From positions 4,620 through 68,619 of the forward strand of contig JAZKFS010000020.1 of the NCBI GenBank assembly GCA_040386315.1: 64,000 nt of DNA, written 5' to 3'. A program made the translations under genes and the position numbers. Source of the DNA: Bacteroidota bacterium. Lineage in GTDB: Bacteria; Bacteroidota; Ignavibacteria; Kapaibacteriales; DASPKH01. Position 1 is the first letter of the stretch. Each line of letters begins with the position of its first letter. The notes beneath the pieces are model-generated. The model was not told the origin of the DNA. It saw nothing but the letters and a program-made list of their open reading frames with translations, and did not search any database. Shown one piece after another: positions 9,615 to 62,737 of the stretch.

Positions 9615-9657
9615 CGTAACTATTTCTTTTAAAAACTTTTCCTTTTAAAAACTTCAA

Positions 9658-10476
9658 TTATTGCTTTATAAATCGTTGAATTTTTTTGTCGGTATCTGTT
9701 GTAATAACGATCGCATAAACTCCAGCTGGCAGATTATTCAGGTCAATTGGTTTTAAAGGGAGTGCTTCTCCTGATAAAACAGTTTGCCCTGTTACTGATA
9801 TGATCGAATATTTCGTAATATTATCCGAATGAATGAACAGCTTGTCTTGCGCAGGATTTGGATAAATACTTAGTACAGCATCTTGATTATTCGTTTTAAA
9901 ATCCTCGACTGATTCAGGTTCTGGCGACATATTAAAATGAACCGTGATACGGAGATTTTCTATATTTTCATTCGTATAGAGCGCTTCGGTTGAATCTTTT
10001 AAACTGATATTGATAATATTTCCTGTCACTAAATCCTGAATTCTTGCTGAATCTATATATTGTGAAAGTGGTTGCCATCTGATATAAAAATCTTTATAAC
10101 TGTCATCTTTATCACCCTGACGAACCGGCCCGGGCGCGATTCCCAAATCGTATGTCTTTGTAAACTGAGTTGTACTTTCAAATCCGCGGAAATCTCTATA
10201 GCTATAAATATTCAAATCCATTATTGTATCATAGAATGCAAAACGCCCACCCAACCCACTTGGCGGATAGCCAGGGTAAATGTCCTTTTCACCTAAAGCT
10301 TTATCGTAGCCATCAGTAGCTCCTTTTTTTATGCCAAATTCCAATGGAACGACAATGGTTTGTCCCGGTTTGCCGGATAGCATCATTTTAATAGTAATGC
10401 TATCAGGTTGGGCAAATGCAGAACTATAGCTAATTACCAGTGCTATAAATATTTTTAAAAGATTCTTTCCAGTCAT
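9658..10476 (-). CDS. T9SS C-terminal-sorting-domain secreted protein (last gene of the cargo operon)
   Basis: ORF listed as 9658..10521. The likely start is MTGKNLLKIFIALVISYSSAFAQ at 10476. The C-terminus YPNPAQDKLFIHSD...AGVYAIVITTD...RFIKQ matches the Por/T9SS tail pattern. Confidence 0.75.
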   Translation of the reverse strand: MTGKNLLKIFIALVISYSSAFAQPDSITIKMMLSGKPGQTIVVPLEFGIKKGATDGYDKALGEKDIYPGYPPSGLGGRFAFYDTIMDLNIYSYRDFRGFESTTQFTKTYDLGIAPGPVRQGDKDDSYKDFYIRWQPLSQYIDSARIQDLVTGNIINISLKDSTEALYTNENIENLRITVHFNMSPEPESVEDFKTNNQDAVLSIYPNPAQDKLFIHSDNITKYSIISVTGQTVLSGEALPLKPIDLNNLPAGVYAIVITTDTDKKIQRFIKQ

Positions 10477-10502
10477 ATCTACACCTCTTACGTAGAAGAT
10501 AT

Positions 10503-10542
10503 GTATAAAAATGGGCAACAACGGATTGCGCCATTGTTGCCC
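10503..10542 (-). terminator. Hairpin plus U-tract downstream of the 1029-aa gene (intra-operon terminator/attenuator)
   Basis: GGGCAACAA (10513-10521) pairs with TTGTTGCCC (10534-10542) across a 12-nt loop. On the minus strand it is followed by ATTTTTATAC. Confidence 0.5.
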
Positions 10543-10579
10543 ATTGTAGAATTAATTTTCCTTTTTAAAGGAATATTTC

Positions 10580-13500
10580 TTAGTGCGTTACAGTAATTGT
10601 GCGAACGATTACTGTTTCACCAGCAACGAATTTTACAAGATACTGTCCGCTTGGAAGTGTGCTTGCATTGAATGTCAATTCCTGAGTTGCTCCAGCTACT
10701 GCTCCACTAACAAGAGTTTGTACTTCCTGTCCAAGAGCATTAAATACTTTTACAGTAGCTACACCAGCATTAGGCATAGAATATGTAATTGTAGCAACAT
10801 TTGAAACCGGGTTTGGAGATACTTTTACATCAAAGTTAGCTGCACCATTGCTTGCCTGAAGCAATTTAATAGTACCTACTTTCTTATCTGCAATTTGAAC
10901 GCTCTCTCCTTTTCCAATATTACCAATGATTTCGCCTGTAGCTGCATTTACCACTGTATATTGAGCATTTGTGTTTTCAACTGCTACGTTTACAGGATAT
11001 TCTGCACCCTGGATTCTGATCGCTGCATTACCAGTAGCAACACTGCTGTTATTAGTAAAGCGTACATCGAATAGATCAGCCGGAGGTAGTGGCGGTAATT
11101 CAAATGATTCAGTATTTACTGTTGGATTTGCTATGTATAATGAACCATTATGTGTAGCATCAGTAATACTGATCTTTGCACTATTTGCATATACTTCCTG
11201 ATTGCTGACAGTATTAGCACTATTTCCACGGGTTTCAGCAATTAGCTTAAGGAATGCTGAACCTTCAGTTACTTTTAACCAGTAGCCAAGCCCTGGAACG
11301 AGTTCAGAAACTTCAACATACCCACGATCTGTCACATATCCGTACACTCCACCAGTTCTGCGTGGCGTCGGCTGTCCAGCAATTGGATCAAACTGAATTC
11401 TGTCAATATTTACCGGTACTGATAAACTACCGATAGTATTCCATCCGGTTGAGATATTTACTTCATCGCGGAAATCAATTCTCTGAAGGCGCGTACCAGC
11501 AACTTTATTGTCAACTACCGGGCCAAATCGAACAAAGTATCCAATTCCAACTTTAGGAACTGCTGCATCCTGATAAATTCCTTTTGAGTAAATAATCGGT
11601 TGCTCAGTTAAGCGATTAGGATAGATATCATCCCAGCTCGTGCTTGACGGACGTACCGGAAGAGAAAGTAAATTCCAACCTCTTCTTGTTACCGGATATT
11701 CAATTACTTTTGGTAATGTATATTCAATAATAAAGGAGCTAATAGCAGCATCGTTAATTGTAATTGAGCGACGTGTACCACCTAATCCCGTTCCTGCTGT
11801 ACGCAGGTCAAAGCTAAAGCGTGTTCCATTTAATGTATCACGAATAAATAGTTGTCCTTCGCTTGGGAAATCTTCGGTATCATACGTGACCGTTACCTGT
11901 GATGTCGTAAAGCCAGCACCACGCTCAAAACGTACTTTATAGATTAGCGTAGTATCTGCATTAACGTTCCGTATATCACGAGATTCATACATTCCTGTTA
12001 AATCTCCCAGGCCATTTACGTGATCTGTAACTTCAGGATTTGTGCTGTATAAACGTGCGCTGAAAACTCCTGTGCCCTGAGGATCAGGATATGGAAATTC
12101 TCCAAACAATGTATCTACACCATCTGTTGCACGTAATCCGGTTCCGATCATTAATTTTGAAGTAACCGATCCGGCACCAACACGTGTAATATCAAAACGG
12201 ATACCTGTTCCACCACCATTTGTATTATTTGGCTCGTTCGGACGGCGAACATTGATATATGTTACTTTCAAACGAACCGGTGTAAATTCTGCAGATGCTG
12301 AACGAAATGTGATATAGCCCACATAGATACCTGTAGCATCCAAATCGTCCTTAATCTGAGGATCAAGTTCATTTGGATCTACTACGATACGGAAATTCAA
12401 TAATGGATCTTTCTGTGTTGTTACAGTTTGATCGGCATTTTGAAATCCAGGACCTCCAGGTCCAAGAATACCATTATCAATGTAATCTATCTCACCAAAT
12501 CTTCTAGCAGAAGGAATTGGGTTTTTTGCGCCAAAGGTTAAAAACTTTAACCATTTTGAGCTTGACTCAACACTAATATCTGTGAGGCGTGTAAAAGATA
12601 TTGACGGATCCGCGATAACATTGATCGCCTGTGTACCCCGGCTGTTTGCTAAATTTGGATTGATTGTTGCGCCATCTTCTACTACTATTGGAGTAGTTAA
12701 CTCCCATAAAGTATTGGAAAGTTGACGCACTTTAGCATCTAAACCAACATTCGGTAAGAAAGAAAAGCGCGGAACATCTGTAACTACTGCATAAATCACA
12801 CCCGGCTTAATCGGTTCTGCCGGATTTGAAAGACGATCTAATCCAGCAAGTCCAAAATTGAGGTCACCTACTGCCGGAGTAGGATACTCAGGAGTTCCTG
12901 GGAATGGGGACTGCTGAGCTATATTTAAGTCATTATACCGTAATGTATCGTTAGTAATAATGATAGGAGTATTTGTTGTACCAACTCCTGAGCTTGTTCC
13001 TACTACACGAAAACGGATATATAATAATTCCTGAAACTCACGTGCATTACAATCAACAGATTTATCATATGGATCTGTTTGTCCTGCTGCGGTAGTCGGA
13101 GCTAAGGGCTTTGTAGAAGCTCCTGCAATACGGATTCTTCTACCGAAGAAGCGGTTAGGAGTTACTACACCAAGACTTGTCTGATATGTATCATCCTCTG
13201 TATCATCAAAGCTAAGATCAAATTCTCTTGCAAGTGAATTAGTATCACTGGAAAGCGGGCCAAAACGCTCAAGGCCTACTGCTCTAAAAATACGCTCATC
13301 GTATTGTACTTTAAACTGAAAGCTATAAATCGGCGTAGCATTGAACCTAGGGTCAATACCATTTAAAAAGCAATTTTTTATAAATACAGGCACAAGGATT
13401 TCCCGAGGCTCACTATTTAAATTTATTGCTTTCGGTACATATATCCGGTCATCCGGATAATTTGTCCCATTCCCAGTTGAGTTGGGATTTGGACGGGATA

Positions 13501-13636
13501 TCAAGCTCAATTGTGGAACTTGCGGTCTAAGTAGCTGTGCCTGAGCAAATGAGCTGCCACAGATGACCATGCCCATAATCAAAGCGAAAGCTTTCAGGAG
13601 ACTATTTCTCCCTTGTAACGGATACCAGTTTTGCAT
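10580..13636 (-). CDS. Large T9SS cargo protein with a cohesin-like N-terminal module
   Basis: ORF listed as 10580..13669. The signal peptide is best from M12 (MQNWYPL...ICGSSFAQA). The cohesin-like stretch is ILVPVFIKN...IYSFQFKVQYDERIFRAVGLE. T9SS tail: SPNPVSNVATITYSM...GQYLVKFVAGE...ITVTH. Confidence 0.8.
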   Translation of the reverse strand: MQNWYPLQGRNSLLKAFALIMGMVICGSSFAQAQLLRPQVPQLSLISRPNPNSTGNGTNYPDDRIYVPKAINLNSEPREILVPVFIKNCFLNGIDPRFNATPIYSFQFKVQYDERIFRAVGLERFGPLSSDTNSLAREFDLSFDDTEDDTYQTSLGVVTPNRFFGRRIRIAGASTKPLAPTTAAGQTDPYDKSVDCNAREFQELLYIRFRVVGTSSGVGTTNTPIIITNDTLRYNDLNIAQQSPFPGTPEYPTPAVGDLNFGLAGLDRLSNPAEPIKPGVIYAVVTDVPRFSFLPNVGLDAKVRQLSNTLWELTTPIVVEDGATINPNLANSRGTQAINVIADPSISFTRLTDISVESSSKWLKFLTFGAKNPIPSARRFGEIDYIDNGILGPGGPGFQNADQTVTTQKDPLLNFRIVVDPNELDPQIKDDLDATGIYVGYITFRSASAEFTPVRLKVTYINVRRPNEPNNTNGGGTGIRFDITRVGAGSVTSKLMIGTGLRATDGVDTLFGEFPYPDPQGTGVFSARLYSTNPEVTDHVNGLGDLTGMYESRDIRNVNADTTLIYKVRFERGAGFTTSQVTVTYDTEDFPSEGQLFIRDTLNGTRFSFDLRTAGTGLGGTRRSITINDAAISSFIIEYTLPKVIEYPVTRRGWNLLSLPVRPSSTSWDDIYPNRLTEQPIIYSKGIYQDAAVPKVGIGYFVRFGPVVDNKVAGTRLQRIDFRDEVNISTGWNTIGSLSVPVNIDRIQFDPIAGQPTPRRTGGVYGYVTDRGYVEVSELVPGLGYWLKVTEGSAFLKLIAETRGNSANTVSNQEVYANSAKISITDATHNGSLYIANPTVNTESFELPPLPPADLFDVRFTNNSSVATGNAAIRIQGAEYPVNVAVENTNAQYTVVNAATGEIIGNIGKGESVQIADKKVGTIKLLQASNGAANFDVKVSPNPVSNVATITYSMPNAGVATVKVFNALGQEVQTLVSGAVAGATQELTFNASTLPSGQYLVKFVAGETVIVRTITVTH

Positions 13637-13681
13637 AATGCTTTCTCCTAATTTTGTAAATAGGACCATTGAATAAAAACT

Positions 13682-14878
13682 TTATTTATTAAGTGTTATA
13701 ATTTCCCTTGTATTAGTAAATACATTCCTTATAACTGCGATGTATTTACCTGCCTCTAATGAATTTTTATCTATAATTATGGAATTTCCTGTACTTCTGT
13801 ATTTTCCTCTTAATTGGCCCAGGATTGAATATACCATAATTTCATATCTGTCATCTATCTCTATTTTCCAGCTATCTTTTAAATCCTCTACTTTCCATTC
13901 TTTTATATTATTTATTCTATCTATTGTATTAATGATCTTTTTTTGGTTTGTAACTGAGATTGACACACTATCTTTTAAAAAAGAAACACACGAGCAATCA
14001 TTTATATCTTTTAAAACCACATTTATGCTACTTACTTCATTTGTATCTCTTTCTCTTTTAAAAACTGCTTTAATCTTGCGATCTACTGCTGAATTTGTAT
14101 CCAGATTTTTAAAAGAAATTTCAACTCCCGTTATTGTTGAGTCCACTTTTACAATTTCAATATCTTGCGTCTCTGCTGCTATTTGTGATATTTTAAAACT
14201 GGATGTATTATAATCCACTTTTAAAATCCCCTCCCTTAGCTTTGTTCCAGTCGAGGCATTTATAGAAAATATTACCTGCTGAGTAAGAATGCTATCATTA
14301 AAATTTAAACTATCTTGTGATGCTTTTACAGAAGCAAATCTTTTTAAAGACTTTCCTTCCTGCACCAGTACTTTTGCATTTACCGTATCGGTAATCGGCC
14401 TTTTAAATTCTATATCAAAATATGATATTTCTACATTAACTGTATCTGCACATGTGCTTAGCACAGTACCCAGGAAGGCTATCAGTGGTTCACTCCCTGT
14501 TACAGGAATATCTTGGATATTTCCACCTGTCGCTCTTACCACTCCTTTACCGGCAAAGTAACCCTGGGTTGGAAATCCTGTAAATTTTTCACTAAGAGTT
14601 CCACTTGTCAACACCTGATCAAACTTTATTTTATTTTGATCAAATTTTAATTCTATGTCAAAGTACAGTAAACTATCACTTTTTAAAACTTGTCCTATTT
14701 GTCCTACTTGTCCTAATGATACAGCTACCACTACCCGCTTACTTCCCGAGCAAACATCTACTGTATCAACTGCATATGCAGATATTGTTGCTACTTGCGC
14801 CATCAGGGGCTGCGCACTGATAATTAATATCAGTGGCAGCACCCATGTAAGCACTTTTTTTAAAAGCAATTGCTGCAT
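13682..14878 (-). CDS. AT-rich, K-rich T9SS-tail secreted protein with a cohesin-like N-terminal module
   Basis: Signal peptide MQQLLLKKVLTWVLPLILIISAQPLMAQ. VVVAVSLGQ...LLYFDIELKFDQNKIKFDQVLTSG. C-terminus IMVYSILGQ...AGKYIAVIRN...ITLNK. Confidence 0.7.
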   Translation of the reverse strand: MQQLLLKKVLTWVLPLILIISAQPLMAQVATISAYAVDTVDVCSGSKRVVVAVSLGQVGQIGQVLKSDSLLYFDIELKFDQNKIKFDQVLTSGTLSEKFTGFPTQGYFAGKGVVRATGGNIQDIPVTGSEPLIAFLGTVLSTCADTVNVEISYFDIEFKRPITDTVNAKVLVQEGKSLKRFASVKASQDSLNFNDSILTQQVIFSINASTGTKLREGILKVDYNTSSFKISQIAAETQDIEIVKVDSTITGVEISFKNLDTNSAVDRKIKAVFKRERDTNEVSSINVVLKDINDCSCVSFLKDSVSISVTNQKKIINTIDRINNIKEWKVEDLKDSWKIEIDDRYEIMVYSILGQLRGKYRSTGNSIIIDKNSLEAGKYIAVIRNVFTNTREIITLNK

Positions 14879-14879
14879 C

Positions 14880-16823: not shown

Positions 16824-16872
16824 AATTACTCCTTTATTTTTTTTAAATTATTATCGTATTAGTAATCTTGCT

Positions 16873-16898
16873 GAGGGTTCTTTATATAAAGAACCCTC
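16873..16898. promoter_or_regulatory. Perfect 26-bp palindrome between the giant adhesin gene and the next operon gene (RNA hairpin, no U-tract)
   Basis: gagggttctttat|ataaagaaccctc: the reverse complement of the first 13 nt equals the last 13 nt exactly. It lies in the 91-bp spacer 16824-16914. Confidence 0.6.
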
Positions 16899-16914
16899 CT
16901 GCAAAACATTATTC

Positions 16915-19900
16915 TTAGCGAATAATCATCATCTGACGTGTCATATTCACTGAACCACTTGATAGACGCGCTACATACATACCTGACGGTAATGCTATGC
17001 CATTTCCATCTTTTGCATTCCATTCTATTACGTTTGCAGTCCCTGCAGGATAGAATCCGCTAAAGTCAGCTACTTTGCTTCCTAAAGCATCAAATATCTC
17101 AAACGTTACCTTTCCTTCTACAGGAAGAGTAAATTGCATTTTCGTGCTGCCTGAGAATGGATTAGGTATGTTTTGGAAAGATTCGCTATTGAATCCTGCT
17201 ACCGGCTGCTCGTCTTCTACGCCACTTGCAAAGTCATATCTAATAACGAAGTTGCTTATCGCGTCACGGAAGATAGTAACAGTAATTGTACCATCAGCAG
17301 CGCTTGTATCAACATTGATATCTTGAGCACTACGAGATGCACCTGTTCTCATATTGATCGCAAAGATATTACCCTGCGAGCTACCATCTAATAACCACCA
17401 TGAACTTCCTGCCGGGTTGCGTACTGCATCAGTTTTTGCTGGAACATTATTTTTATTCCATTTGATGGTTACAGGATAATTAGGCGAGGTATTTCCAACT
17501 ACATCACCCGCCTGGAAGCGGCCTTTGTAATATGCTTCGCCGATCACCCCAGCTACTGCTCTTGGGAAAATATCCCTTAGGGCACCATTTGACGAAGGTA
17601 TTGTCCAACGAGTGTCATACACATCAATTGGTGGAATTGGAGGTAATTCATATTCACAATAGTTAGAATCGAGTTTACCTACTGCATTTGCAGATTCACC
17701 AGTTGTAGCATTGACTGCTGTACCCCATTCAATAACCTGGAATGCGCCTTTGCTATTTGAAATAGTCATTGGTACAATAAAGTCTGTTGGTTGAGATACA
17801 TTAATTTTATAGCTGATTGTCCTTCTTGCTCCAGCTTTATCTGTTGCTGTAATGTAAAGAGTTGCTTTACCTTGAGCATCAAGAGTATCCTGGAAGTTCG
17901 TAGCTGTAATCGTCAGGGTTACTGAATCCGTTGTCTGAGGTCCCGAAATCACACTTGGGGTAACTGTAAAGCCACTTTCAGTTGTAATTGTAACGGTCTC
18001 ATTTCCATTAGTTCCCTTACGTGTAAGATCAATATCTCTAAGCACGATTGTGCCAGTATATGATTTACCAATCTCAATACATTGGACAGTCGGAATTGCA
18101 GTTAGGATCGGAGGATGATTTACAGCTATTACGCGAATTGTGAATGTGCGTACATCTGTTAACCCGCCTTCATCTTTTACAACTACCGTAAATGTTACGG
18201 TTGTATCGTTAAATGGCAAGTCTGTTACACGTGGTGTTCCAAAAAGAATTCCACTTACAGGATCAATCTTTAACCAGTTTGGCGCTGTTTTTGAATTGCG
18301 CACATCGAATGAACCTGCTTCATCTGCGAAACACTCATCACGAGGGATAAATGTGCTTGTATCGTTAGCATAAAGCAATTTGAATCTCTGATCCTGGCCG
18401 AAGTTTGGATCTGTTACACGGACTCGACGTAGTGAATCAAGAAGTGCTATATTATAATCCTGATCTTCGATTGCATCAGGGAAAGTAGCATTCTCAATAC
18501 GTGGAGCAACGTTTACCATTACACGGCGTGTAAGTGTATTAATTCTTCCATGCCCATCATTAACCACAAATGTTACAGTAGTATCGGTATTTAGAGCACC
18601 TTCAAACTGACGTACCGGGGTTAATAAATTATATGCCTGAGCTGAATCAATTCTAATACTTAGCTGCCCTGCTGATGTAAAGTCTGCACCAAATGGATCC
18701 AGAGCATTAAAATCACCATATTGTCTAAAGTACTGATTAGACATCCAGGTAGGACGTACTAGAGTCACTTCATCTGTTACTGAATCAGTTGGATTACGGC
18801 GAAGTGCAATTGATTGGAATCCATAAGCTGTTTTACCATAACGGAAGTCCCAACCGCGTGCTGCTGCTGCCGCATCTTCAGCTTCATCATCAGTCTGAAG
18901 GTCAATCTGGAAACGTAGTTTATCTGTTAAATTTGCAACAAGCATCTCATCTGTTCCACACTTATAAACATTCTGTGTGAAGATAGGATTAGTATCTGTT
19001 ACAAATACTCTAAACTGATATGTAGCTATTGAATTAGCACCTACATTAATTGTATCTTGTTGTAAGTAGCGTGCATTCGTTACATCATAAGCTTCCGCAT
19101 GGAAATATGGCGGGAAGATATTAATATATCGTGCAATAACACTATCAGCTAATCCTGCGGCACGTAATGAATCCAATGTGTTGATATTTGGCGGGAAATT
19201 ACGAATTCCTACCGTTACCATTTCACCACCCGGAACCACAAATGGATTCGTTGGACGGCCACCAAGAACACGATAGCCACGTGCACCGAATGCTGTTCCC
19301 TGTGAAGCATTGATTGTTGTATCAGTTAGCCAATATGAAAGTCCAGATCCCGGCTCTACACTATATGTATAGGTTAGTTGCGTGAAATCATTTGGAGTCA
19401 ATACTGAACGCGGATCGTAGAAGATATTTGAATCTACTCCGCTGATTGTAAAGATTGAATCACGTCCCGGAGCACGTTCTAGATCATTTACATCACGAGG
19501 ATATGTTCTATCTTCGCTTACAAAGATCATATTACGCAACTCTACCGGCAGAAGATTACGCAGGTTGTTGATGTTACCTGTAAATACTGGAGGAGGTGTT
19601 GAAACTCCTACGTTAAATACTAACGCATCATCATAAGCTGCATTTACACCTTCATTCCAAAGTACCGTACGAGAAACTACCCGAACTAAATCTCCATTTG
19701 CAACCGGTAACGCTCTATAGCGCTCACCAGCCCAGAAATTAATACGATTCACCCTGTTTTGATCAATCTGACTATTGTCATCGTTTGATATTGGAAGGCG
19801 AGGACGATTGCTAAACTGAACTCCAAACTCGTTTGGAGCGCCTAAGACATTCGAACCAGCCTCATACCGGCGTCCGACTAGTGCTGCCGCATCTTCATTT

Positions 19901-22900
19901 GCTCCATTCTGAGCTAATTGAGCTAACAACTCACGTCCACTACCTAAGTTTGCTAATCCTTCAGCCGAACGGCGGAATGTCGTATTACCAGTTCTATTTG
20001 CTGAATCTGGTAGCATTTCAATCCGTCCTCTGAATATCTCGCTAGACGTTGTGACTTGGCGAAGATTCGCACGTACAAAGTCACCCGTTGTTTCGTTGAT
20101 TACGAAGAATACAGTTTCATTAACTGTAGGAGCATTTGGATGATCCTGGTTACTCAACTCTGCTGTTCCGCTATAATTAGCGCGTGTTTCAAGGAATAAA
20201 GGATAACCAATTGGCTGGTCGCCCTTGAATTCACTTTGCAGAGCATTGATATTAGCATCAACTTCAGCTACAAATGGATCACGTCCTAAACGGCGTACAT
20301 AGCGATTAAATGAAGGCGAACCCGCAGTATTTGTAAAACGACGAATTGATTTTGGAATACCTACAGCAAAGTCCTCAATCGGTGACATGCGACGACGTGA
20401 ATAATCAGCTGTCTTAATGTCCGTACCTTTATCAAAAAGATCATATATACGGCCCTGCATTAATAGTTTCTCTGGAATACTATTTGCAGCCGGTGTATTT
20501 TGATTATCAAATGCTATGTTGCCAACAGGAATTGGCGTATAGTTAAAACGTTGAGAGGATTCAAACGGCCCTTGCTCTTTAGGATTTGAACTATTGCGGA
20601 TATAACGCAAATGCGTAGTACCGTCACCAGCTACAAAGAAAGTCTCCTGAAGAGTTCCTGATTCCGGTAGTATTGTCGTTACCGGTGCTTCAGTCTGGCC
20701 CCAGTAATTACCGCGAAGAGTATCAACACCACCACTTCCAATAAGGCCGGTTGACGAAGTTCCTTTTGTATTAGGAGCATCAGGAAGGCGAATCAGAAAG
20801 CGTGCTGTATTATCATACATTGAATTCGCAGCAATGCTTGAAGAAGCATACGGAAGAGGCCCGATAATTTCTCCATAGAGAATTGCTCCCGCAAGATCAC
20901 TTGATGCAGGGTTTTCTCTGAAAGCCGAAGTTGTCCGGATATATGGCCCTGTAATTGCATTCTGCTCACGGCCTGTATCAGATAATGCAGTATTATTAGT
21001 AATAAGTGAGCGCTGGAATACTAATTTTAGATCGTAGTTATCTGAATATACCGCTGCTCCTGTGAATGCAGTATTATTTTGAATACGCACGCGATTAAAG
21101 ATAATAGAATCAGTACGACCGATATTATTTGTTGAAGCTTCATCAAGAATGTAAATAGCACCACCTAAGCCGGTACCGTTTTCAGGTAATCCTACGCCAG
21201 GGTGTGTACGTACTACATCACCTAATTGAGTTGTTCCTGTACCAAGCTGTGCAAGATTTACAACAGCTTCATTATCAATGAATCGTGTAAGCATCCGTGC
21301 ATCAGGCGGCGTAATTGCTGAAGCAGCATTTGTAAATACTTCATTTGACGAAGTAAATGTCGTTGCTTCACCTGATGGCAAGGTTGTTAACTGATCTAAG
21401 TCTGTTAACATATATCGTCTGGAATCATCACCAGGGCTAACCATTGCTACTGCTCCACCATTACTAAAGTTTGCGGTATTCATTACGAATTCCACTCCTT
21501 TTAGAACATTAAGAGTAGCGTTTAGCGTATAGATGGCACCACCACCACGAACCAACGCACGGGATGAAGCTTGAAGAGTTGCATCTGAAGTATCAACAAA
21601 TCTTCCTAGACCTACCACATTGCTGTCCAAGATAGCACGAACTATTTGTACATAGCGGCGCGCTAATGGCAAAGCCGGATCAATATTTAATGTAATAGCA
21701 CCACCGGAATACCCTGCTGTATTACGTGTAAATTCTACACGGAATGGGCGTGAATAACCAATAACCAGGTTACCTGATACACCACCAGCTCCATATACGG
21801 TCATGTTTTTCTGAGCATAGATAGCACCACCATGAAAGGTAGCTACGTTACGATCAAATACAACATTATACCCATAGTTGCGAGTTAAGATAAGTGCATC
21901 AGATCCACCAATGATTGGTGATGGGCGTACTTCGCTCAATGTCGCTGAATTACCAACGAAGATAGCACCGCCTCTTGAAGCTCTGTTGCTTAAGTAGTGT
22001 GATGGATATCTTGAATCAAGCGTCTGACCGCCACGAACCTGTAAACGTCCTGCAGTAGCATCTACATAAATAGCTCCACCCATTGAATAGCTCAATGAAT
22101 TTGTACCTGCAGTAGGATTATCACTGATAAATGGAACAATCGCTTGATTAGCATTGAATCTACCGGCAATTGTTACAGATGTCTGCTCACCTACATATAG
22201 TGCACCACCACGCGCTCCCAATGTACCTGCATTATTCTGAAGATTGTTAGCAATGTTACCGCTAAAGTTAATATAATCATTAGAACCGGTAGAAATACCA
22301 TTAACATCATTATTAACACCTAATGCCACTTCAATAGCACTTCCACCATTAGCAGCACTTGCACCGGCAATAACCATTGCCCCACCAAATGCCTGATTTC
22401 TGGCAGCTGTTCCATTAAAGGTTGCAGCATTATTTACATCGTCAGTTAAGATCGTACCTACACCCGGTACAAATATCTGGCGAACATTTGCATTAATTAC
22501 TCTATTTGCATCAAAGTTTAACTGACGAACACGTCCTAATAACACCGCTAAACGTGCATCATCCACACCTTGACGCTGTACATCTGTAAATGGCTCAGCT
22601 GTTGCCGTAGCAAGATTATCAATTGCAGGAATAGCCTGAACTACGGCTGCACCGGTTGAATTTTCAGTTACAGCACCGTTTGCAGTACCAGGATAATTCG
22701 GAAGCGCTGCTGTTGATACAGTTGGAAATAGTCCAGTTCCAACCGGAGCTTCCAGAAGTTGAAGAGCACCACCGCGATTACGGGCAAAGTTGTTTGTGAA
22801 ATTACAGTTTACAAGCCACGTACGTGACGAGAAACTTGTAAGAGCACCACCACCACCATTAGAACGTGAACGTAAATCATCATTTACTGCTGCACGTGCT

Positions 22901-23847
22901 GCTGTTGTTCCACCAGCTTGGTAATAATCTCTTCTATCTACTGTAGTATCTTTGCGGAAATCTTGAAAATTTACGTCACGGAAAAATGCAGCCCGTGCAC
23001 CCGGAAGAACAACGATATGTCCATACTCACGCGAGAAAGCGTTTACACGGCGACCTTTAAAGGTAATCGTTGATGGAGTAATATTTACACTACTACCATT
23101 TGCACGGAGGAATGATTGAATATTAATGTTTGGGTCAGTATTTGCAAACCGTAAGCGAGCTGCTGTATAAAGCAACGCTGCTTCAGGAGTTGCAAGAAAC
23201 TGCGGAGAATTCGTTGTTGCAGTCGGGTCACTTAAGTTTATTAAGTTACGATTACGCGAATTCGCTGTACCACCGGTTTGACCAGGAGCAAGCGTAGTAT
23301 CCAGGACAACGTTATAAACAAAATTATTTTTGCCTGAATTTGCAGTATTACGATTTCCTGCTACAGTTACCTCATTCGGTGTTGAAATTGTAAACACACC
23401 CGGAGATAAAAAGAAACCAGGATCAGCAAAACCATAAGGGCGCTGGATGCCCGGAGTTACCGGGTCTAGATCAACGTTAATAAAATTAACATTGTTGTAT
23501 GTTACCGACATACGCCCGTCAGCGATAATACGCCCGCCGGTCGAGTCAATCATACGGCCGTTATCGGTAAACTCTACAGTTGTACCCGGCTCAATAATTA
23601 AAGTACCGCCAATAGTATATGTACCATTGACGCGATAGAGAGTATCTCTCAAAAATACTCGGACTTCGCCGGGACTGACACGCCCATTGACTTCCGCAAT
23701 TGGCGGCGCAGCAAACACTTCAGAAGCTGAAAGTGCAAGCACCATCCATAAAGCTAAACGAAACAAACGTTGCATAGAACCTCCGTTTGGTAAAAAAGAA
23801 TTAACCACATTATTACTATTATTTATAATTTTTAAATCTGTTTTCAT
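16915..23847 (-). CDS. Giant (about 2300 aa) T9SS-secreted adhesin: Pmp-like right-handed beta-helix repeats, Ig/cadherin-like (He_PIG-type) domains, T9SS tail
   Basis: About 10 GGA[ILV] repeats, often with an FxxN context (NRGGALQLL, RGGALYVGE, MGGAIYVDA, RGGAIFVGN, HGGAIYAQK, SGGAITLNI, GGGAIYTLN, LGGAIYILD). APNWLKIDPVSGILFGTP...VVVKDEGG. Tail IPNPFSGSTKMQF...FEIFDALGSKV...GMYVARLSSG. The real start may be the second ATG at 23775 (MQRLFRLALWMVLALSASEVFA). Confidence 0.85.
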   Translation of the reverse strand: MKTDLKIINNSNNVVNSFLPNGGSMQRLFRLALWMVLALSASEVFAAPPIAEVNGRVSPGEVRVFLRDTLYRVNGTYTIGGTLIIEPGTTVEFTDNGRMIDSTGGRIIADGRMSVTYNNVNFINVDLDPVTPGIQRPYGFADPGFFLSPGVFTISTPNEVTVAGNRNTANSGKNNFVYNVVLDTTLAPGQTGGTANSRNRNLINLSDPTATTNSPQFLATPEAALLYTAARLRFANTDPNINIQSFLRANGSSVNITPSTITFKGRRVNAFSREYGHIVVLPGARAAFFRDVNFQDFRKDTTVDRRDYYQAGGTTAARAAVNDDLRSRSNGGGGALTSFSSRTWLVNCNFTNNFARNRGGALQLLEAPVGTGLFPTVSTAALPNYPGTANGAVTENSTGAAVVQAIPAIDNLATATAEPFTDVQRQGVDDARLAVLLGRVRQLNFDANRVINANVRQIFVPGVGTILTDDVNNAATFNGTAARNQAFGGAMVIAGASAANGGSAIEVALGVNNDVNGISTGSNDYINFSGNIANNLQNNAGTLGARGGALYVGEQTSVTIAGRFNANQAIVPFISDNPTAGTNSLSYSMGGAIYVDATAGRLQVRGGQTLDSRYPSHYLSNRASRGGAIFVGNSATLSEVRPSPIIGGSDALILTRNYGYNVVFDRNVATFHGGAIYAQKNMTVYGAGGVSGNLVIGYSRPFRVEFTRNTAGYSGGAITLNIDPALPLARRYVQIVRAILDSNVVGLGRFVDTSDATLQASSRALVRGGGAIYTLNATLNVLKGVEFVMNTANFSNGGAVAMVSPGDDSRRYMLTDLDQLTTLPSGEATTFTSSNEVFTNAASAITPPDARMLTRFIDNEAVVNLAQLGTGTTQLGDVVRTHPGVGLPENGTGLGGAIYILDEASTNNIGRTDSIIFNRVRIQNNTAFTGAAVYSDNYDLKLVFQRSLITNNTALSDTGREQNAITGPYIRTTSAFRENPASSDLAGAILYGEIIGPLPYASSSIAANSMYDNTARFLIRLPDAPNTKGTSSTGLIGSGGVDTLRGNYWGQTEAPVTTILPESGTLQETFFVAGDGTTHLRYIRNSSNPKEQGPFESSQRFNYTPIPVGNIAFDNQNTPAANSIPEKLLMQGRIYDLFDKGTDIKTADYSRRRMSPIEDFAVGIPKSIRRFTNTAGSPSFNRYVRRLGRDPFVAEVDANINALQSEFKGDQPIGYPLFLETRANYSGTAELSNQDHPNAPTVNETVFFVINETTGDFVRANLRQVTTSSEIFRGRIEMLPDSANRTGNTTFRRSAEGLANLGSGRELLAQLAQNGANEDAAALVGRRYEAGSNVLGAPNEFGVQFSNRPRLPISNDDNSQIDQNRVNRINFWAGERYRALPVANGDLVRVVSRTVLWNEGVNAAYDDALVFNVGVSTPPPVFTGNINNLRNLLPVELRNMIFVSEDRTYPRDVNDLERAPGRDSIFTISGVDSNIFYDPRSVLTPNDFTQLTYTYSVEPGSGLSYWLTDTTINASQGTAFGARGYRVLGGRPTNPFVVPGGEMVTVGIRNFPPNINTLDSLRAAGLADSVIARYINIFPPYFHAEAYDVTNARYLQQDTINVGANSIATYQFRVFVTDTNPIFTQNVYKCGTDEMLVANLTDKLRFQIDLQTDDEAEDAAAAARGWDFRYGKTAYGFQSIALRRNPTDSVTDEVTLVRPTWMSNQYFRQYGDFNALDPFGADFTSAGQLSIRIDSAQAYNLLTPVRQFEGALNTDTTVTFVVNDGHGRINTLTRRVMVNVAPRIENATFPDAIEDQDYNIALLDSLRRVRVTDPNFGQDQRFKLLYANDTSTFIPRDECFADEAGSFDVRNSKTAPNWLKIDPVSGILFGTPRVTDLPFNDTTVTFTVVVKDEGGLTDVRTFTIRVIAVNHPPILTAIPTVQCIEIGKSYTGTIVLRDIDLTRKGTNGNETVTITTESGFTVTPSVISGPQTTDSVTLTITATNFQDTLDAQGKATLYITATDKAGARRTISYKINVSQPTDFIVPMTISNSKGAFQVIEWGTAVNATTGESANAVGKLDSNYCEYELPPIPPIDVYDTRWTIPSSNGALRDIFPRAVAGVIGEAYYKGRFQAGDVVGNTSPNYPVTIKWNKNNVPAKTDAVRNPAGSSWWLLDGSSQGNIFAINMRTGASRSAQDINVDTSAADGTITVTIFRDAISNFVIRYDFASGVEDEQPVAGFNSESFQNIPNPFSGSTKMQFTLPVEGKVTFEIFDALGSKVADFSGFYPAGTANVIEWNAKDGNGIALPSGMYVARLSSGSVNMTRQMMIIR

Positions 23848-23885
23848 TATTTTCTTAACTGATGTACAGGTATGTATTGGATAGT

Positions 23886-24608
23886 TTATTCAATTACCGT
23901 GCCAAGTCTTCCGAGAGCGCTTTTTGCTAAGCCGGAAAACTCAGTATATTCATTCTGACCGACAACTTCACGATACAGTTTTTCTGCTTTCTGCTTATCA
24001 TTTGCTTTTTCATAAGCCAGAGCAGCAAAGTATTTATATCGTTCTTCAAGTCCTATTTCTGCTCCGGCAGATGCTGCTTTTTCATATAGTTCCGCAGCAT
24101 TTTTAAAATCTCCCTTCTCTTCCTTAGCAGCGGCAAGGCCGGCCTGTGCACCCGCCTGTACTAATGGAGAATCCGAATCATCAGCATCTTCAAAATATTT
24201 CACTGCCTGATCGGCTTTGCGTTGCGCCAGCATTGCATTGCCTGCATAAAGGGCCGCTACATTTCCGGTTTCCGTCCCATCATAATCACGAACAATCCTC
24301 TCCAAACCATATACGCTTTGACCACGAACTTTGCGTGAAGGATCGCCTTTTAAAGCTTTTTCATAATCTCCTGCATCATAATATTCACGAATGCGAGAGA
24401 GCGCCAAGGCTCCTTCATTCGTTTTTGCTTCGTTCTGTGAACGGAAAAACAGCCAGGCAGCAGCGGCTATCAGTACAACTGCCGTAATGCCTCCAATCAG
24501 TTTGAGGTTTTCCTGAAGTTTCGTCCGTACATTTTGAAGCTGTGTATCTTCAGCTGTAGTCTCTTCAGCATCGTATACCGCTACATTTCCTTTTGGATTT
24601 GTATCCAT
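23886..24608 (-). CDS. Membrane-anchored TPR-like protein (YfgM-type architecture)
   Basis: ORF listed to 24674. The likely start is MDTNPKGN at 24608. One TM helix (IGGITAVVLIAAAAWLFF) followed by TPR-like helical repeats (AALYAGNAMLAQRKADQAVKYFE, AAELYEKAA, ALAYEKANDKQKAEKLY). Confidence 0.6.
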   Translation of the reverse strand: MDTNPKGNVAVYDAEETTAEDTQLQNVRTKLQENLKLIGGITAVVLIAAAAWLFFRSQNEAKTNEGALALSRIREYYDAGDYEKALKGDPSRKVRGQSVYGLERIVRDYDGTETGNVAALYAGNAMLAQRKADQAVKYFEDADDSDSPLVQAGAQAGLAAAKEEKGDFKNAAELYEKAASAGAEIGLEERYKYFAALAYEKANDKQKAEKLYREVVGQNEYTEFSGLAKSALGRLGTVIE

Positions 24609-24677
24609 TATCCTTCTCGCTTTCTGGTGATTTTGGAATATTAAAAGATTTTTTAAACACTCTTGGGATAACAATAG

Positions 24678-24751
24678 TGCGCCCGAAGGGGATCGAACCC
24701 CCAGCCTTTGGAATCGGAATCCAACGCTCTATCCAATTGAGCTACGGGCGC
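24678..24751 (-). tRNA. tRNA-Arg (anticodon CCG)
   Basis: The reverse complement folds as a cloverleaf: acceptor GCGCCCG/CGGGCGC, D arm GCTC-AATTGGATA-GAGC, anticodon arm TTGGA-TTCCGAT-TCCAA, T arm with the TTCGATC loop, discriminator A. No encoded CCA. Confidence 0.9.
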
Positions 24752-24765: not shown

Positions 24766-25016
24766 TTTTAAAAGACTGCTGCTAATCTTTTAAAAGCAAG
24801 TTGCAAATATAGCAGTCCCAAGCTCAAAAACAAATGAATTTTTTTTTAAAGTTTTTTTAAAAAGCAAATTTTGTGGAAAACTTTTCTACTTTCCCTTTTA
24901 AAAAGTGTCAGGTTTTTTTCATAGTGTCAGGTTTATTACACACTTTTTATTCTGACACTTTACACTTTTTAAAAAATCTTTTAAAAACTTGTTTTAAAAC
25001 TTCACGGTTTTTAAAA
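24766..25016. repeat. Array of 8 TTTTAAAA copies (E1 terminator / tRNA promoter region)
   Basis: Copies start at 24766, 24788, 24855, 24896, 24967, 24979, 24992 and 25009. Confidence 0.85.
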
Positions 25017-27198: not shown

Positions 27199-27227
27199 AG
27201 TTTCCTCTGGAAGGAAATTCCTATATT

Positions 27228-28262: not shown

Positions 28263-28275
28263 AGTGTTCCTCGTT

Positions 28276-59078: not shown

Positions 59079-59092
59079 TGAGATTAGCGTGC

Positions 59093-59227
59093 TTTTAAAA
59101 GAAGTAGAGATAAGCTGCAAGATATGAAATAGTTTTTAAAAACCAATATTCCAGAACTCTTTTTAAAAGCCGATTCAGCTATTTCTCATAATTTTGCTTT
59201 TAAAACGTCACTGCATTCTTTTAAAAA
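59093..59227. repeat. 5 TTTTAAAA copies in a divergent promoter region (DUF2961 gene / prfC)
   Basis: Copies start at 59093, 59134, 59162, 59199 and 59220. Confidence 0.85.
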
Positions 59228-62735: not shown

Positions 62736-62737
62736 CT

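What the first reader, a model, noticed from the sequence alone, without database searches (positions are those of the whole stretch)
10461..24100. The large T9SS-cargo genes are completely free of the genome's signature octamer
Seen directly:
- I found zero TTTTAAAA in 10461-13972 (3.5 kb), 14866-24100 (9.2 kb) and 1-1739 (1.7 kb).
- These stretches are the 1029-aa, 647-aa and 2310-aa cargo genes, the truncated secreted gene at the left edge, and their internal spacers (13637-13681, 16824-16914, 23848-23885).
- The rest of the window's coding DNA has about 130 copies in about 46 kb. At that rate about 35-40 copies would be expected in these regions.

Why this is odd:
- Elsewhere, poorly conserved secreted proteins are the most motif-rich. 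The small T9SS protein 62738-63421 has 6, and the 398-aa gene 13682-14878, embedded in the same operon, has 8.
- Spot checks suggest these genes also differ compositionally, at about low-40s %GC with A/T-ending codons, against about 50-58% in neighbouring housekeeping genes.

Possible readings (inference):
- The genes were acquired recently and have not been 'ameliorated' to the motif.
- They undergo a different recombination or repair regime.
- The motif or its binding factor is selected against in them.

Caveats:
- These proteins are K-poor, which lowers the opportunity for the motif.
- Several ordinary 1-2 kb genes also have zero or one copy (E1, ilvE, the 509-aa envelope protein, Crp).
Basis: partly seen in the sequence, partly recalled or inferred. 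Interest (0 to 1): 0.75.

Follow-up and report, generated by a model that had tools for sequence, protein, structure and literature searches.

The report
Old surface-protein genes untouched by signature octamer
Three large secreted-protein genes lack every copy of a DNA word that saturates the rest of this genome, not because they are foreign but probably because long-standing constraints on these genes reject both halves of the word.

Summary
TTTTAAAA occurs 215 times in the window, about 9 expected. It occurs zero times in 1-1739, 10461-13972 and 14866-24100.

The favoured reading, recent acquisition, is refuted.
- The operon (TPR, 2310-aa, 647-aa, 398-aa, 1029-aa and 287-aa genes) is syntenic in every relative for which DNA beyond the 647-aa gene was fetched (L081, L083, L084, L086, L089, L090). 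Thirty-eight relatives keep the 2310-aa gene beside E1.
- Two sister genomes also carry the octamer, and their three cargo orthologues also have zero copies.
- Synonymous divergence among the three genomes is saturated, and neighbouring genes gained lineage-specific copies over the same period.

The cargo genes sit at the neutral baseline: 0.3 copies expected from codon shuffling. They show no active depletion of related words. Mutational substrate is not limiting. Substrate, regression or density nulls predict about 29-38 copies, Lys-scaled nulls about 10-14, and the weakest null about 3.

Two constraints are specific to these genes and predate the octamer:
- They are Lys-poor, and each in-frame copy needs an AAA Lys codon.
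- They avoid T runs on the coding strand, at about half the expected frequency.

My inference is that selection on the coding sequence blocks the substitutions that create the motif.

The exemption is not general to T9SS cargo: a 904-aa cargo gene carries 8 copies.

The parts
16915..23847 (-). 2310-aa T9SS type A cargo gene ('giant'; polymorphic-membrane-protein repeats, He_PIG Ig domain). It has 0 motif copies.
   Evidence: ORF and motif count. TIGR04183 sorting domain scores 26.4 bits against a cut-off of 23, and there is a POMP repeat. Full-length orthologues at 43-79% identity are found across Kapaibacteria and Ignavibacteria-like genomes. Lys 1.6%, Arg 6.8%, GC3 0.26. Runs of exactly four T: 8 observed against 32.7 expected.
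14880..16823 (-). 647-aa T9SS cargo gene (NIDO-like domain, FlgD-Ig domain, sorting domain). It has 0 motif copies.
   Evidence: TIGR04183 33.9 bits. Lys 2.9%. Orthologues in the sister genomes also have 0 copies.
10580..13669 (-). 1029-aa T9SS cargo gene. It has 0 motif copies.
   Evidence: TIGR04183 36.5 bits. Lys 3.0%. Orthologues in the sister genomes also have 0 copies.
13682..14878 (-). 398-aa gene embedded in the operon, 1 bp from the gene upstream and 12 bp from the gene downstream. It has 8 motif copies and serves as the internal control.
   Evidence: Lys 8.5%, GC3 0.24. It is 41-44% identical among the three motif-bearing genomes, with lineage-specific motif gains. It is Lys-rich in the AT-rich motif-less relatives L089 and L090 (5.7-8.8%), but only 1.3% in the GC-rich L084, where the whole proteome is Lys-poor.
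9658..10521 (-). 287-aa small T9SS cargo gene at the end of the operon. It has 2 motif copies.
   Evidence: The motif copies are lineage-specific in the window genome and in L083.
23886..24674 (-). TPR protein gene, the first gene of the conserved block. It has 1 motif copy.
   Evidence: It is conserved upstream of the giant gene in every relative examined.
24677..24751 (-). tRNA-Arg(CCG) between the E1 gene and the operon.
   Evidence: The same tRNA sits at the same position in L081, L083, L084, L086 and L089, so it is not an island junction.
24766..25016 (.). Intergenic cluster of 8 motif copies, 7 upstream of the tRNA and operon and downstream of E1 and the eighth (25009) inside the 3' end of E1.
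2..1660 (-). Truncated secreted-protein gene at the left edge (553 aa in the window; the contig ends about 216 bp further on). It has 0 motif copies.
   Evidence: Its orthologue P0122 carries the sorting domain and has 1 motif copy. Taken alone, this gene's zero is not significant.
56406..59120 (-). Counter-example: a 904-aa T9SS cargo gene (DUF2961 plus sorting domain) with 8 motif copies.
   Evidence: Lys 6.3%, GC3 0.32.
10461..13972 (.). Motif-free interval of 3.5 kb.
14866..24100 (.). Motif-free interval of 9.2 kb.

Best explanation
**Where the octamer occurs.** The octamer is a lineage-specific, highly iterated palindrome. It has spread through this genome and its two sisters, and it is absent from all other relatives examined.

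**How it spreads (shown).**
- New copies arise by point substitution at positions that tolerate change.
- Inside genes the word can be read in only two frames: [F/L/I/V]-Leu-Lys (NTT TTA AAA) or x-Phe-Lys-[A-starting codon] (NNT TTT AAA ANN). The third frame contains a stop codon.
- Every in-gene copy therefore needs an AAA Lys codon and puts a run of at least four T on the coding strand.

**What the three genes are (shown).** The 2310-, 647- and 1029-aa genes are old, vertically inherited members of a conserved surface-protein operon. In relatives that never had the octamer they are already:
- Lys-poor. In seven of the eight relatives checked at operon level (32 GTDB loci, L089, L090), and in all relatives but one for the giant gene versus E1 and gatB, they have clearly less Lys than their neighbours; the exception is the GC-rich L084/L086 clade, where the whole proteome is equally Lys-poor.
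- Depleted in coding-strand T runs through their choice of synonymous codons.

**Why they are empty (inferred).** Selection on the coding sequence rejects substitutions that would build either half of the word. The genes therefore stay at the neutral baseline of about 0.3 copies while everything around them fills up. They are untouched; they have been neither imported nor cleansed.
For: **Not foreign**
- Full-length orthologues of the giant protein occur throughout the group.
- Thirty-eight relatives keep the giant gene within 10 kb of E1.
- The whole gene order from gatB to the oxidoreductase gene is identical in L081, L083 and L089. L084, L086 and L090 share it only as far as the 287-aa gene.
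- tRNA-Arg is conserved at the same spot.
- The cargo genes' tetranucleotide signature is no more deviant than that of other low-GC3 resident genes.

**Long exposure to the process**
- The sister genomes carry the motif (60 copies in 26.9 kb and 52 in 23.3 kb) and have 0 copies in all three cargo orthologues.
- dS among the three genomes is at least 1.4 for the operon and the oxidoreductase gene.
- The 398-aa, 287-aa and oxidoreductase genes show 16 single-lineage motif sites. At that rate about 12 per lineage are expected in the cargo genes.

**How copies arise**
- They arise by in-situ substitution without indels. Most of these substitutions create the Lys residue.
- In the other genes, 126 of 139 compatible peptide contexts carry the motif.

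**Neutral state of the cargo genes**
- Motif: 0 observed against 0.3 expected. TTTAAA: 8 against 6.3. One-mismatch words are at expectation.

**Substrate is not limiting**
- In the motif-less relative L089, cargo orthologues have as many near-motif sites per residue as their neighbours. That substrate predicts about 34-37 copies.

**Constraint 1: Lys-poverty**
- Cargo Lys is 1.6-3.0% here, against 6-8.5% in the neighbours.
- The same split holds in the AT-rich motif-less L089 and L090: cargo 3.4-4.3% against 5.7-9.2%. In the 32 GTDB loci the giant orthologue has less Lys than E1 and gatB in all but one locus (gatB of L049). In the GC-rich L084/L086 clade the whole proteome is Lys-poor and the operon-internal split is absent.
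- Despite GC3 of 0.26, K/(K+R) in the giant protein is about 4 SD below the GC trend.

**Constraint 2: T-run avoidance**
- In the window's cargo genes, runs of exactly four T number 34 against 63.6 expected (z = -4.7). A runs are not depleted.
- In 38 motif-less giant orthologues the ratio is 0.51, and in 647-aa orthologues it is 0.77.
- In 377 other ORFs the ratio is 1.03-1.27, whatever their length or Lys content.

**Gene-level resolution**
- The motif-rich 398-aa gene lies 1 bp and 12 bp from the exempt genes.
Against: **The two constraints do not fully account for a strict zero.**
- Cargo Lys is about 2.6-fold scarcer and T runs about 2-fold scarcer. Simple scaling still predicts roughly 6-14 copies per genome.
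- None of 118 variable Lys residues in the cargo genes lies in a motif, against 18 of 197 in the neighbours (p = 2e-4).
- Of 12 non-stop sites within one mismatch of the motif in the cargo genes, none is completed. In the other genes about 40% are.
- None of the 8 compatible peptide contexts in the cargo genes of the three genomes is realised, although most of those contexts are young.

**Other low-Lys genes do carry copies.** Gene 61779-62798 has 2.4% residual Lys and 5 copies.

**The link is inferred.** I have not tested whether the two constraints cause the exclusion. The reason for T-run avoidance is unknown, and the nature of the process that spreads the motif is unknown.

**Sampling limit.** Only three related lineages carry the motif, so the replication is not fully independent.
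Confidence: 0.55

Rival explanations
1. Active exclusion at the DNA level. The octamer is a working DNA site, for example for a binding protein, a methylase and repair pair, or uptake or recombination. Having it inside this operon's large genes is harmful, so copies are purged as they arise. On this view the extreme Lys-poverty in the motif-bearing clade is partly a consequence of that purging.
For: - The shortfall persists after Lys-based normalisation.
- No near-motif site in the cargo genes is completed.
- K/(K+R) in the giant protein is about 4 SD below the trend for its GC content.
- For HIP1, motif-poor resident genes have been attributed to selection against the motif, and HIP1 frequency falls with transcript abundance (PMC3025956, PMC5861425).
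Against: - Related words (TTTAAA, the 7-mers, the one-mismatch words) occur at neutral expectation in the cargo genes.
- The low K/(K+R) is shared with the motif-less L084/L086 clade.
- T-run avoidance is no stronger in the motif-bearing clade (0.31-0.49) than in the outgroups (0.34-0.79).
- T-run avoidance is strand-asymmetric, whereas the DNA site is symmetric.
- The 398-aa gene, with 8 copies, is co-transcribed in the middle of the operon.
Confidence: 0.17
2. Pure lack of opportunity. The proteins' amino-acid composition makes the word nearly impossible, so zero copies needs no selection or history to explain it.
For: - Synonymous shuffles give 0.3 expected copies in 13.6 kb of cargo coding DNA. 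The analytic codon model gives 0.2-0.4.
- Only 3 compatible peptide contexts exist in 4539 residues, which matches expectation from composition.
- If the ninefold enrichment seen in the other genes is applied to this baseline, only about 3 copies are predicted, giving P(0) of about 0.07 per genome.
Against: - In the other genes most motif copies were made by changing the protein, including creating the Lys. Present-day composition is therefore partly a result and cannot serve as a fixed limit.
- Near-motif substrate in motif-less orthologues predicts about 34-37 copies.
- The regression on residual Lys predicts 29-30 copies.
- The zero recurs in three genomes that are saturated at synonymous sites.
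Confidence: 0.12
3. A different recombination or transformation regime. The motif spreads by biased uptake or gene conversion between relatives, and these genes do not take part, for example because their alleles are too divergent.
For: - dS is mosaic. The gatB-ilvE-E1 block is at 0.36-0.6 while the operon is at 1.4 or more, and ilvE in L081 is a divergent allele. This shows recombination among these lineages.
- Neisserial uptake sequences are reported to be depleted in regions under diversification (bioRxiv 2025.10.24.684340).
Against: - The oxidoreductase, 398-aa and 287-aa genes share the deep divergence (dS of at least 1.3) and are motif-rich, with lineage-specific gains.
- The exemption follows gene borders inside one operon.
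- New copies do not arise preferentially near existing ones.
Confidence: 0.08
4. Recent horizontal acquisition or a chimeric assembly join, with no time yet for amelioration to the motif.
For: - GC3 is low (0.22-0.26) and a tRNA gene flanks the block.
- There is mild tree discordance. The cargo genes are closest to the L084/L086 clade, whereas the housekeeping genes are marginally closer to L001/L002.
- In cyanobacteria, absence of HIP1 is used as a marker of foreign genes (PMC3025956).
Against: - Synteny is identical in independent assemblies.
- The tRNA is conserved in place.
- Orthologues occur group-wide.
- Low GC3 and low Lys content are ancestral to the family.
- The genes have been present through saturating divergence while their neighbours gained copies.
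- Any transfer would have to pre-date the split of the three motif-bearing genomes, and it would not explain why the embedded 398-aa gene filled up.
Confidence: 0.03

Closest known systems
HIP1-poor ('HIP1-less') genes in Synechococcus elongatus PCC 7942 (Delaye et al. 2011, PMC3025956; Xu et al. 2018, PMC5861425)
   Same: - A palindromic octamer is hugely over-represented, forms in situ by mutation, and occurs in both coding and non-coding DNA.
- A minority of long genes have far too few copies for their length.
- The published explanations are foreign origin or selection against the motif. Genes for rRNA, ribosomal proteins and highly expressed products lack it, and its frequency falls with transcript abundance.
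   Different: - The word here is TTTTAAAA, not GCGATCGC, and the host is a Kapaibacteria-like member of the Bacteroidota/Chlorobi group, not a cyanobacterium.
- The motif is confined to a narrow clade.
- The exempt genes are neither alien nor shown to be highly expressed.
- Two gene-specific constraints that pre-date the motif can be identified here.
- I did not look for any cognate methyltransferase.
DNA uptake sequences (DUS/USS) of Neisseriaceae and Pasteurellaceae, as summarised in bioRxiv 2025.10.24.684340
   Same: - Short words occur at about one or more per kb across the genome, including in coding DNA.
- They sit preferentially at poorly conserved positions, in the reading frames that cost least.
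[quoted passage not shown]
   Different: - Uptake sequences are not palindromes and act in one orientation.
- Their spread is tied to a known uptake receptor. Competence and uptake bias are unknown here.
- Here the fastest-evolving genes of the operon are the richest in the motif, and the exempt genes are under ordinary purifying selection (dN/dS about 0.10-0.16).
Selection against mononucleotide runs in coding DNA
   Same: Synonymous codons in the giant-gene family are chosen so that coding-strand T runs occur at about half the expected frequency.
   Different: - Only T runs are avoided, not A runs.
- The effect is specific to this gene family and does not scale with gene length or Lys content in 377 other ORFs.

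Membership tests
Recently acquired genomic island | Absent or patchy in close relatives | tested here: not met
   Full-length orthologues occur in more than 100 protein clusters. The same operon is present in L081, L083, L084, L086, L089 and L090.
Recently acquired genomic island | Insertion junction (tRNA or attachment site, integrase or other mobility genes) specific to this genome | tested here: not met
   tRNA-Arg(CCG) sits at the same position in five relatives. Pfam scans of the flanking genes found no integrase or transposase.
Recently acquired genomic island | Composition atypical for the host genome | tested here: inconclusive
   GC3 of 0.22-0.26 is low, but motif-rich resident genes share it (0.23-0.33). 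Tetranucleotide correlation with the rest of the genome is 0.45, against 0.42 for other low-GC3 residents. Cargo orthologues have lower GC3 than housekeeping genes in most motif-less relatives too.
Recently acquired genomic island | Gene tree incongruent with the species tree | tested here: inconclusive
   The cargo genes are closest to the L084/L086 clade, whereas E1, gatB and ilvE are marginally closer to L001/L002 even after Dayhoff recoding. No proper phylogeny was built. Any such event would pre-date the split of the three motif-bearing genomes.
HIP1-type highly iterated palindrome (the word whose absence is at issue) | Palindromic octamer over-represented at least 15-fold, in both coding and non-coding DNA | tested here: met
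   215 copies against 9.3 expected. 126 copies lie in ORFs and the rest are intergenic.
HIP1-type highly iterated palindrome (the word whose absence is at issue) | Copies form in situ by point substitution, not by insertion of a mobile unit | tested here: met
   Alignments of gatB and E1 with 14 motif-less orthologues show substitutions only and no indels. Flanking positions carry almost no information.
HIP1-type highly iterated palindrome (the word whose absence is at issue) | Sites conserved between genomes beyond the background rate | tested here: inconclusive
   Five oxidoreductase sites, four gatB sites and two 398-aa-gene sites are shared by all three genomes despite dS of at least 1.3 in two of those genes. 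No control octamers were scored.
HIP1-type highly iterated palindrome (the word whose absence is at issue) | Sequence GCGATCGC with cognate orphan methyltransferases, in cyanobacteria | tested here: not met
   The word is different and the phylum is different. Methyltransferases were not searched. This is an analogue of HIP1 and not a member of that family.
DNA uptake sequence (DUS/USS) | Orientation-specific non-palindromic word recognised by a competence receptor, with biased uptake | not testable with these tools
   The word is a perfect palindrome.
T9SS type A cargo | C-terminal sorting domain (TIGR04183 / PF18962) above the curated cut-off | tested here: met
   Giant gene 26.4 bits, 647-aa gene 33.9 bits, 1029-aa gene 36.5 bits, all against a cut-off of 23. 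The domain is also present in motif-bearing genes: 287-aa gene 46.3 bits, gene 62738-63421 27.7 bits, and gene 56406-59120 PF18962 29.6 bits against a cut-off of 27.

The most novel reading that the evidence does not exclude
The conserved surface-protein operon is an actively protected zone. On this reading the octamer is a functional DNA site for a binding, methylation and repair, or uptake and recombination system. Its presence inside these three genes is harmful, so selection removes every incipient copy. That selection has helped hold the proteins' lysine content far below what the genome's AT pressure predicts. If so, the pattern of exempt genes would be a direct handle on what a highly iterated palindrome does, a question still open for HIP1 after 30 years.
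Probability: 0.15. Interest if true: 0.6.

Novelty: new member of a known kind. Interest (0 to 1): 0.38.

Why it matters
- **A caution for detecting gene transfer.** Absence of a genome's signature oligomer together with odd codon usage is used as a marker of horizontal transfer, for example with HIP1 in cyanobacteria. Here both signals are present in genes that are demonstrably ancient residents.
- **How an iterated palindrome colonises a genome.** The contrast between the cargo genes and the 398-aa gene inside the same operon shows the route. The word spreads by point substitution wherever the coding sequence tolerates its two possible readings, and it rewrites proteins as it goes.
- **A natural system for further study.** The octamer itself appears to be an undescribed HIP1-like element in a non-cyanobacterial lineage with motif-free close relatives. 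That pairing is well suited to asking what drives such words.

Tried and rejected
- **Recent transfer or chimera.** Rejected on synteny, orthology, the conserved tRNA, and persistence through saturated dS.
- **Lys-scarcity alone.** A per-Lys test (0 of 118 against 18 of 197) and the regressions still predict 10-30 copies.
- **Lack of mutational substrate.** Near-motif sites in motif-less orthologues are as frequent as in the neighbouring genes.
- **A family-intrinsic ban on the encoded tripeptides.** Motif-less giant orthologues carry them at the level expected from composition, with a ratio of 1.0-1.16.
- **Active avoidance of related words.** TTTAAA, the 7-mers and the one-mismatch words are at expectation in the cargo genes.
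- **Local seeding of new copies from old ones.** Lineage-specific sites are no closer to shared sites than random positions are (median 115 bp against 129 bp, p = 0.7). The 287-aa gene gained copies from none.
- **Gene length or T9SS status as the cause.** ORFs of 1075, 905 and 904 aa carry 14, 12 and 8 copies, and the last of these is a T9SS cargo gene.
- **Lys purged in response to the motif.** The same low K/(K+R) is found in the motif-less L084/L086 clade.
- **Looking up the window's own contig beyond its edges.** This returned only a 1.2-kb fragment.
- **A metagenome scan for triple-motif clusters.** It returned mostly AT-rich unrelated contigs and a few short candidates.
- **Literature searches.** They found no report of TTTTAAAA as an iterated palindrome and none for Kapaibacteria.

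Full report
**1. The observation**

TTTTAAAA occurs 215 times in the 64-kb window, against 9.3 expected from dinucleotide-preserving shuffles. No copy lies in 1-1739, 10461-13972 or 14866-24100. The 9243-bp and 3520-bp gaps are the two largest in the window, and the next largest is 2219 bp.

The free stretches correspond to four minus-strand ORFs:
- 16915-23847 (2310 aa)
- 14880-16823 (647 aa)
- 10580-13669 (1029 aa)
- a gene truncated by the window edge (2-1660)

The three complete genes carry a T9SS type A sorting domain above NCBIfam's cut-off. The other ORFs of at least 150 aa hold 126 copies in 44.6 kb. The 398-aa gene wedged between the 647- and 1029-aa genes has 8.

One generalisation is wrong. 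Gene 56406-59120 is a 904-aa T9SS cargo gene and has 8 copies. T9SS status and gene size are therefore not what confers exemption.

**2. How unusual is the zero?**

At the density of the rest of the window, 38 copies (coding density) to 63 copies (overall density) would be expected. A Poisson gap of 9.2 kb has a probability of about 7e-12. A regression of motif count on residual lysine content across the other 33 ORFs predicts 29-30 copies. With the observed over-dispersion (2.2), P(0) is about 1e-9.

Without the genome's enrichment the picture is different. The expectation for the same DNA is 0.3 from synonymous-codon shuffles, 0.2-0.4 from an analytic codon model and 1.1 from a first-order Markov chain. 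The cargo genes are therefore not below the ordinary baseline. They are at it, while the other genes are ninefold above their own codon-shuffle expectation (126 against 14.0).

**3. What the word does in the other genes**

The word can be read in-frame in only two ways: NTT-TTA-AAA ([F/L/I/V]-L-K) or NNT-TTT-AAA-ANN (x-F-K-[I/M/T/N/K/S/R]). The third frame contains TAA.
- In non-cargo ORFs, 75 of 85 contexts of the first kind and 51 of 54 of the second kind are the motif.
- Alignments of gatB and E1 with 14 motif-less orthologues show that copies arose by substitution without indels.
- One gatB site recoded a conserved V-L-K synonymously. The other three gatB sites changed variable residues and created the lysine. 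At the single E1 site some relatives already have Lys and the Leu is new.
- Flanking bases carry almost no information, apart from a dislike of A at -1 and T at +8.

This is the behaviour described for HIP1 in cyanobacteria and for uptake sequences.

**4. Who carries it**

The E1 protein placed the window among Kapaibacteria-like members of the Bacteroidota/Chlorobi group.
- None of 80 species-representative relatives (59-76% identity) shows the enrichment, with 0-0.5 copies per kb.
- Two sister genomes do: L081/L082 (JGI 3300043546, a 985-kb contig) with 60 copies in 26.9 kb, and L083 (SRR24788683) with 52 copies in 23.3 kb.
- The nearest outgroups by operon similarity (L084, L086; GC 56%) have none. 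Two AT-rich relatives (L089, L090) have one copy each, outside the operon genes.

**5. The genes are old residents**
- The giant protein has full-length orthologues at 43-79% identity in more than 100 clusters.
- Thirty-eight relatives keep the giant gene within 10 kb downstream of E1.
- The order gatB-ilvE-E1-tRNA-TPR-giant-647-398-1029-287-oxidoreductase is identical in L081, L083 and L089. L084, L086 and L090 share it as far as the 287-aa gene.
- tRNA-Arg(CCG) is in the same place in five relatives.

These independent assemblies also exclude a chimeric join.

Low GC3 is not a foreign signature.
- Motif-rich residents share it, for example the 398-aa gene at 0.24.
- Giant orthologues have GC3 below that of E1 and gatB in most motif-less relatives.
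- Tetranucleotide z-scores of the cargo genes correlate with the rest of the genome as well as those of other low-GC3 residents do (0.45 against 0.42).

A mild discordance remains unresolved. The cargo genes are closest to L084/L086, while the housekeeping genes are marginally closer to L001/L002. Any underlying event would pre-date the three motif-bearing genomes.

**6. Exposure without uptake**

In both sister genomes the three cargo orthologues have zero copies, and the embedded gene has 2 and 5.
- Synonymous divergence among the three genomes is at least 1.4 for the operon and the oxidoreductase gene. Only gatB-ilvE-E1 is at 0.36-0.6.
- dN/dS of the cargo genes is 0.10-0.16, which is ordinary purifying selection.
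- Over the same period the TPR, 398-aa, 287-aa and oxidoreductase genes accumulated 16 single-lineage motif sites in 1750 residues. That rate predicts about 12 per lineage in the 3986 cargo residues, and none is seen.

'Not yet ameliorated' is therefore untenable.

**7. What does not explain it**
- *Mutational substrate.* In motif-less L089 the cargo orthologues have as many sites within 1-3 mismatches of the motif per residue as their neighbours. That predicts about 34-37 copies.
- *A ban on the encoded tripeptides.* Motif-less giant orthologues carry the two peptide contexts at the level expected from composition.
- *Active avoidance of related words.* TTTAAA occurs 8 times against 6.3 expected, and the 7-mers and one-mismatch words are at expectation.
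- *Local seeding.* New sites are no closer to old ones than random positions are, and the 287-aa gene gained copies from none.
- *Regional or transcriptional effects.* The 398-aa gene lies 1 bp and 12 bp from the exempt genes and has the highest density among the operon genes (6.7 per kb).

**8. What does distinguish the three genes**

*(a) Lysine.*
- Cargo Lys is 1.6, 2.9 and 3.0%, against 6-8.5% in the neighbours.
- The same split exists in motif-less L089 and L090: cargo 3.4-4.3%, against 5.7-8.8% for the 398-aa gene, about 6% for the 287-aa gene, and 7-9% for the TPR, gatB and oxidoreductase genes.
- In all 32 further relatives but one, the giant orthologue has less Lys than both E1 and gatB (in L049 it is below E1 only).
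- In the motif-bearing clade, K/(K+R) of the giant protein (0.14-0.19) is about 4 SD below the trend with GC, although GC3 has fallen to 0.26. The same value is seen in the motif-less L084/L086 clade, so it is not a response to the motif.

*(b) T runs.*
- Relative to synonymous shuffles, coding-strand runs of exactly four T are halved in the window's cargo genes: 34 against 63.6 expected, z = -4.7. A runs are not depleted.
- In 38 motif-less giant orthologues the ratio is 0.51, and in 647-aa orthologues it is 0.77.
- The ratio is 0.87-1.00 in E1, gatB, ilvE and TPR, and 1.03-1.27 in 377 other ORFs, whatever their length or Lys content.
- The motif-bearing clade (0.31-0.49) lies within the outgroup range of 0.34-0.79.

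Because this is measured against synonymous shuffles, it is a constraint at the nucleic-acid level. Because it is strand-asymmetric, it points to the transcript or its translation.

**9. Best explanation (inference)**

Each in-gene copy needs an AAA Lys codon and a coding-strand T run. Both are disfavoured in exactly these genes, and were so before the octamer expanded. Substitutions that create the motif are therefore rejected, and the genes stay at the neutral baseline. I give this a confidence of 0.55.

Its weakness is quantitative. A 2.6-fold scarcity of Lys and a 2-fold scarcity of T runs predict roughly 6-14 copies under simple scaling, not zero.
- 0 of 118 variable Lys residues in the cargo genes are in a motif, against 18 of 197 in the neighbours (p = 2e-4).
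- 0 of 12 non-stop near-motif sites are completed, against about 40% elsewhere.
- 0 of 8 compatible contexts are realised, although most of those contexts are young.

Selection thresholds may make the effect non-linear, or a further factor may exist. One speculation, marked as such: in the commoner frame the word is U_UUA_AAA, a canonical -1 slippery heptamer, and such sites would be costlier in long, expensive secreted proteins.

**10. Rivals**
- Active DNA-level exclusion of a functional site: 0.17.
- Pure lack of opportunity: 0.12.
- A different recombination regime: 0.08.
- Recent transfer or chimera: 0.03.

**11. Comparison with known cases**

The closest precedent is the set of HIP1-poor genes of Synechococcus elongatus. 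Those are interpreted either as alien or as selected against the motif: ribosomal and highly expressed genes lack it, and HIP1 frequency falls with transcript abundance (PMC3025956, PMC5861425). Neisserial uptake sequences are likewise reported to be depleted in diversifying regions and absent from recent acquisitions.

The present case belongs to the 'resident but refractory' class. It adds two measurable constraints that pre-date the motif. The octamer itself fails the defining sequence and host features of HIP1, so it is an analogue and not a member. I found no report of it.

**12. Verdict**
- The favoured interpretation, recent acquisition, is wrong.
- The remaining contrast is most simply explained by old constraints on the coding sequence.
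- Interest is moderate. The result is mainly a caution for transfer detection based on oligomer signatures, and a useful internal control for studying how this iterated palindrome spreads.

Noticed in passing
Whole window; L081, L082, L083, L088: TTTTAAAA behaves as a highly iterated palindrome, at 3.4 copies per kb and 23-fold over expectation. It is confined to a narrow Kapaibacteria-like clade and is absent from 80 species-level relatives and from the nearest outgroups. In ordinary genes 126 of 139 compatible peptide contexts carry it. A is disfavoured at -1 and T at +8. I found no published description.
   Followed up: partly
Window 24766-25016, 27228-27296, 28276-28387, 30045-30163: Almost every intergenic region holds a cluster of 4-8 copies, often 11-17 bp apart. 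Intergenic density is roughly 4-5 times the coding density.
   Followed up: no
Non-cargo ORFs of the window: The spectrum of one-mismatch variants is uneven. TCTTAAAA (0 against 5.8 expected) and TTTTAAGA (0 against 3.2) are missing, whereas many other variants are 2-12 times enriched. Positions 2 and 7 may therefore matter most to whatever maintains the word.
   Followed up: no
Window 24994-29868 against 7203-24674; L081, L083: Synonymous divergence among the three motif-bearing genomes is mosaic. The gatB-ilvE-E1 block is at dS 0.36-0.6, and everything from the TPR gene to the oxidoreductase gene is at 1.3 or more. ilvE of L081 is a divergent allele (77% amino-acid identity, against 99% between the other two genomes). 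This suggests recent recombination among these lineages.
   Followed up: partly
L084, L085, L086 (GCA_033581675.1 and ERZ6863514): The nearest outgroup clade shows a proteome-wide shift from lysine to arginine (Lys 0.4-4%, Arg 7-10%, GC 56%). For example, the orthologue of the 398-aa gene has 1.3% Lys there, against 8.5% in the window.
   Followed up: partly
Window 16915-23847 and 38 orthologues in L001-L080: The giant-gene family avoids coding-strand T runs through synonymous codon choice, at 0.51 of expectation. A runs are not avoided. 377 other ORFs in the same loci show no such effect. The cause is unknown.
   Followed up: yes
Window 56406-59120: In this 904-aa T9SS cargo gene, 7 of the 8 motif copies use the x-Phe-Lys frame. 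Elsewhere the Leu-Lys frame dominates, with 75 of 126 copies.
   Followed up: no
L168, L130, L159, L103 (metagenome contigs): These short contigs have GC of 0.40-0.47 and 2.5-4.6 motif copies per kb. They may belong to further motif-bearing organisms.
   Followed up: no
Window 61779-62798 and 62738-63421: The two listed ORFs overlap by 61 bp on the same strand. The upstream start of 61779-62798 (a TTG codon) may be mis-placed.
   Followed up: no
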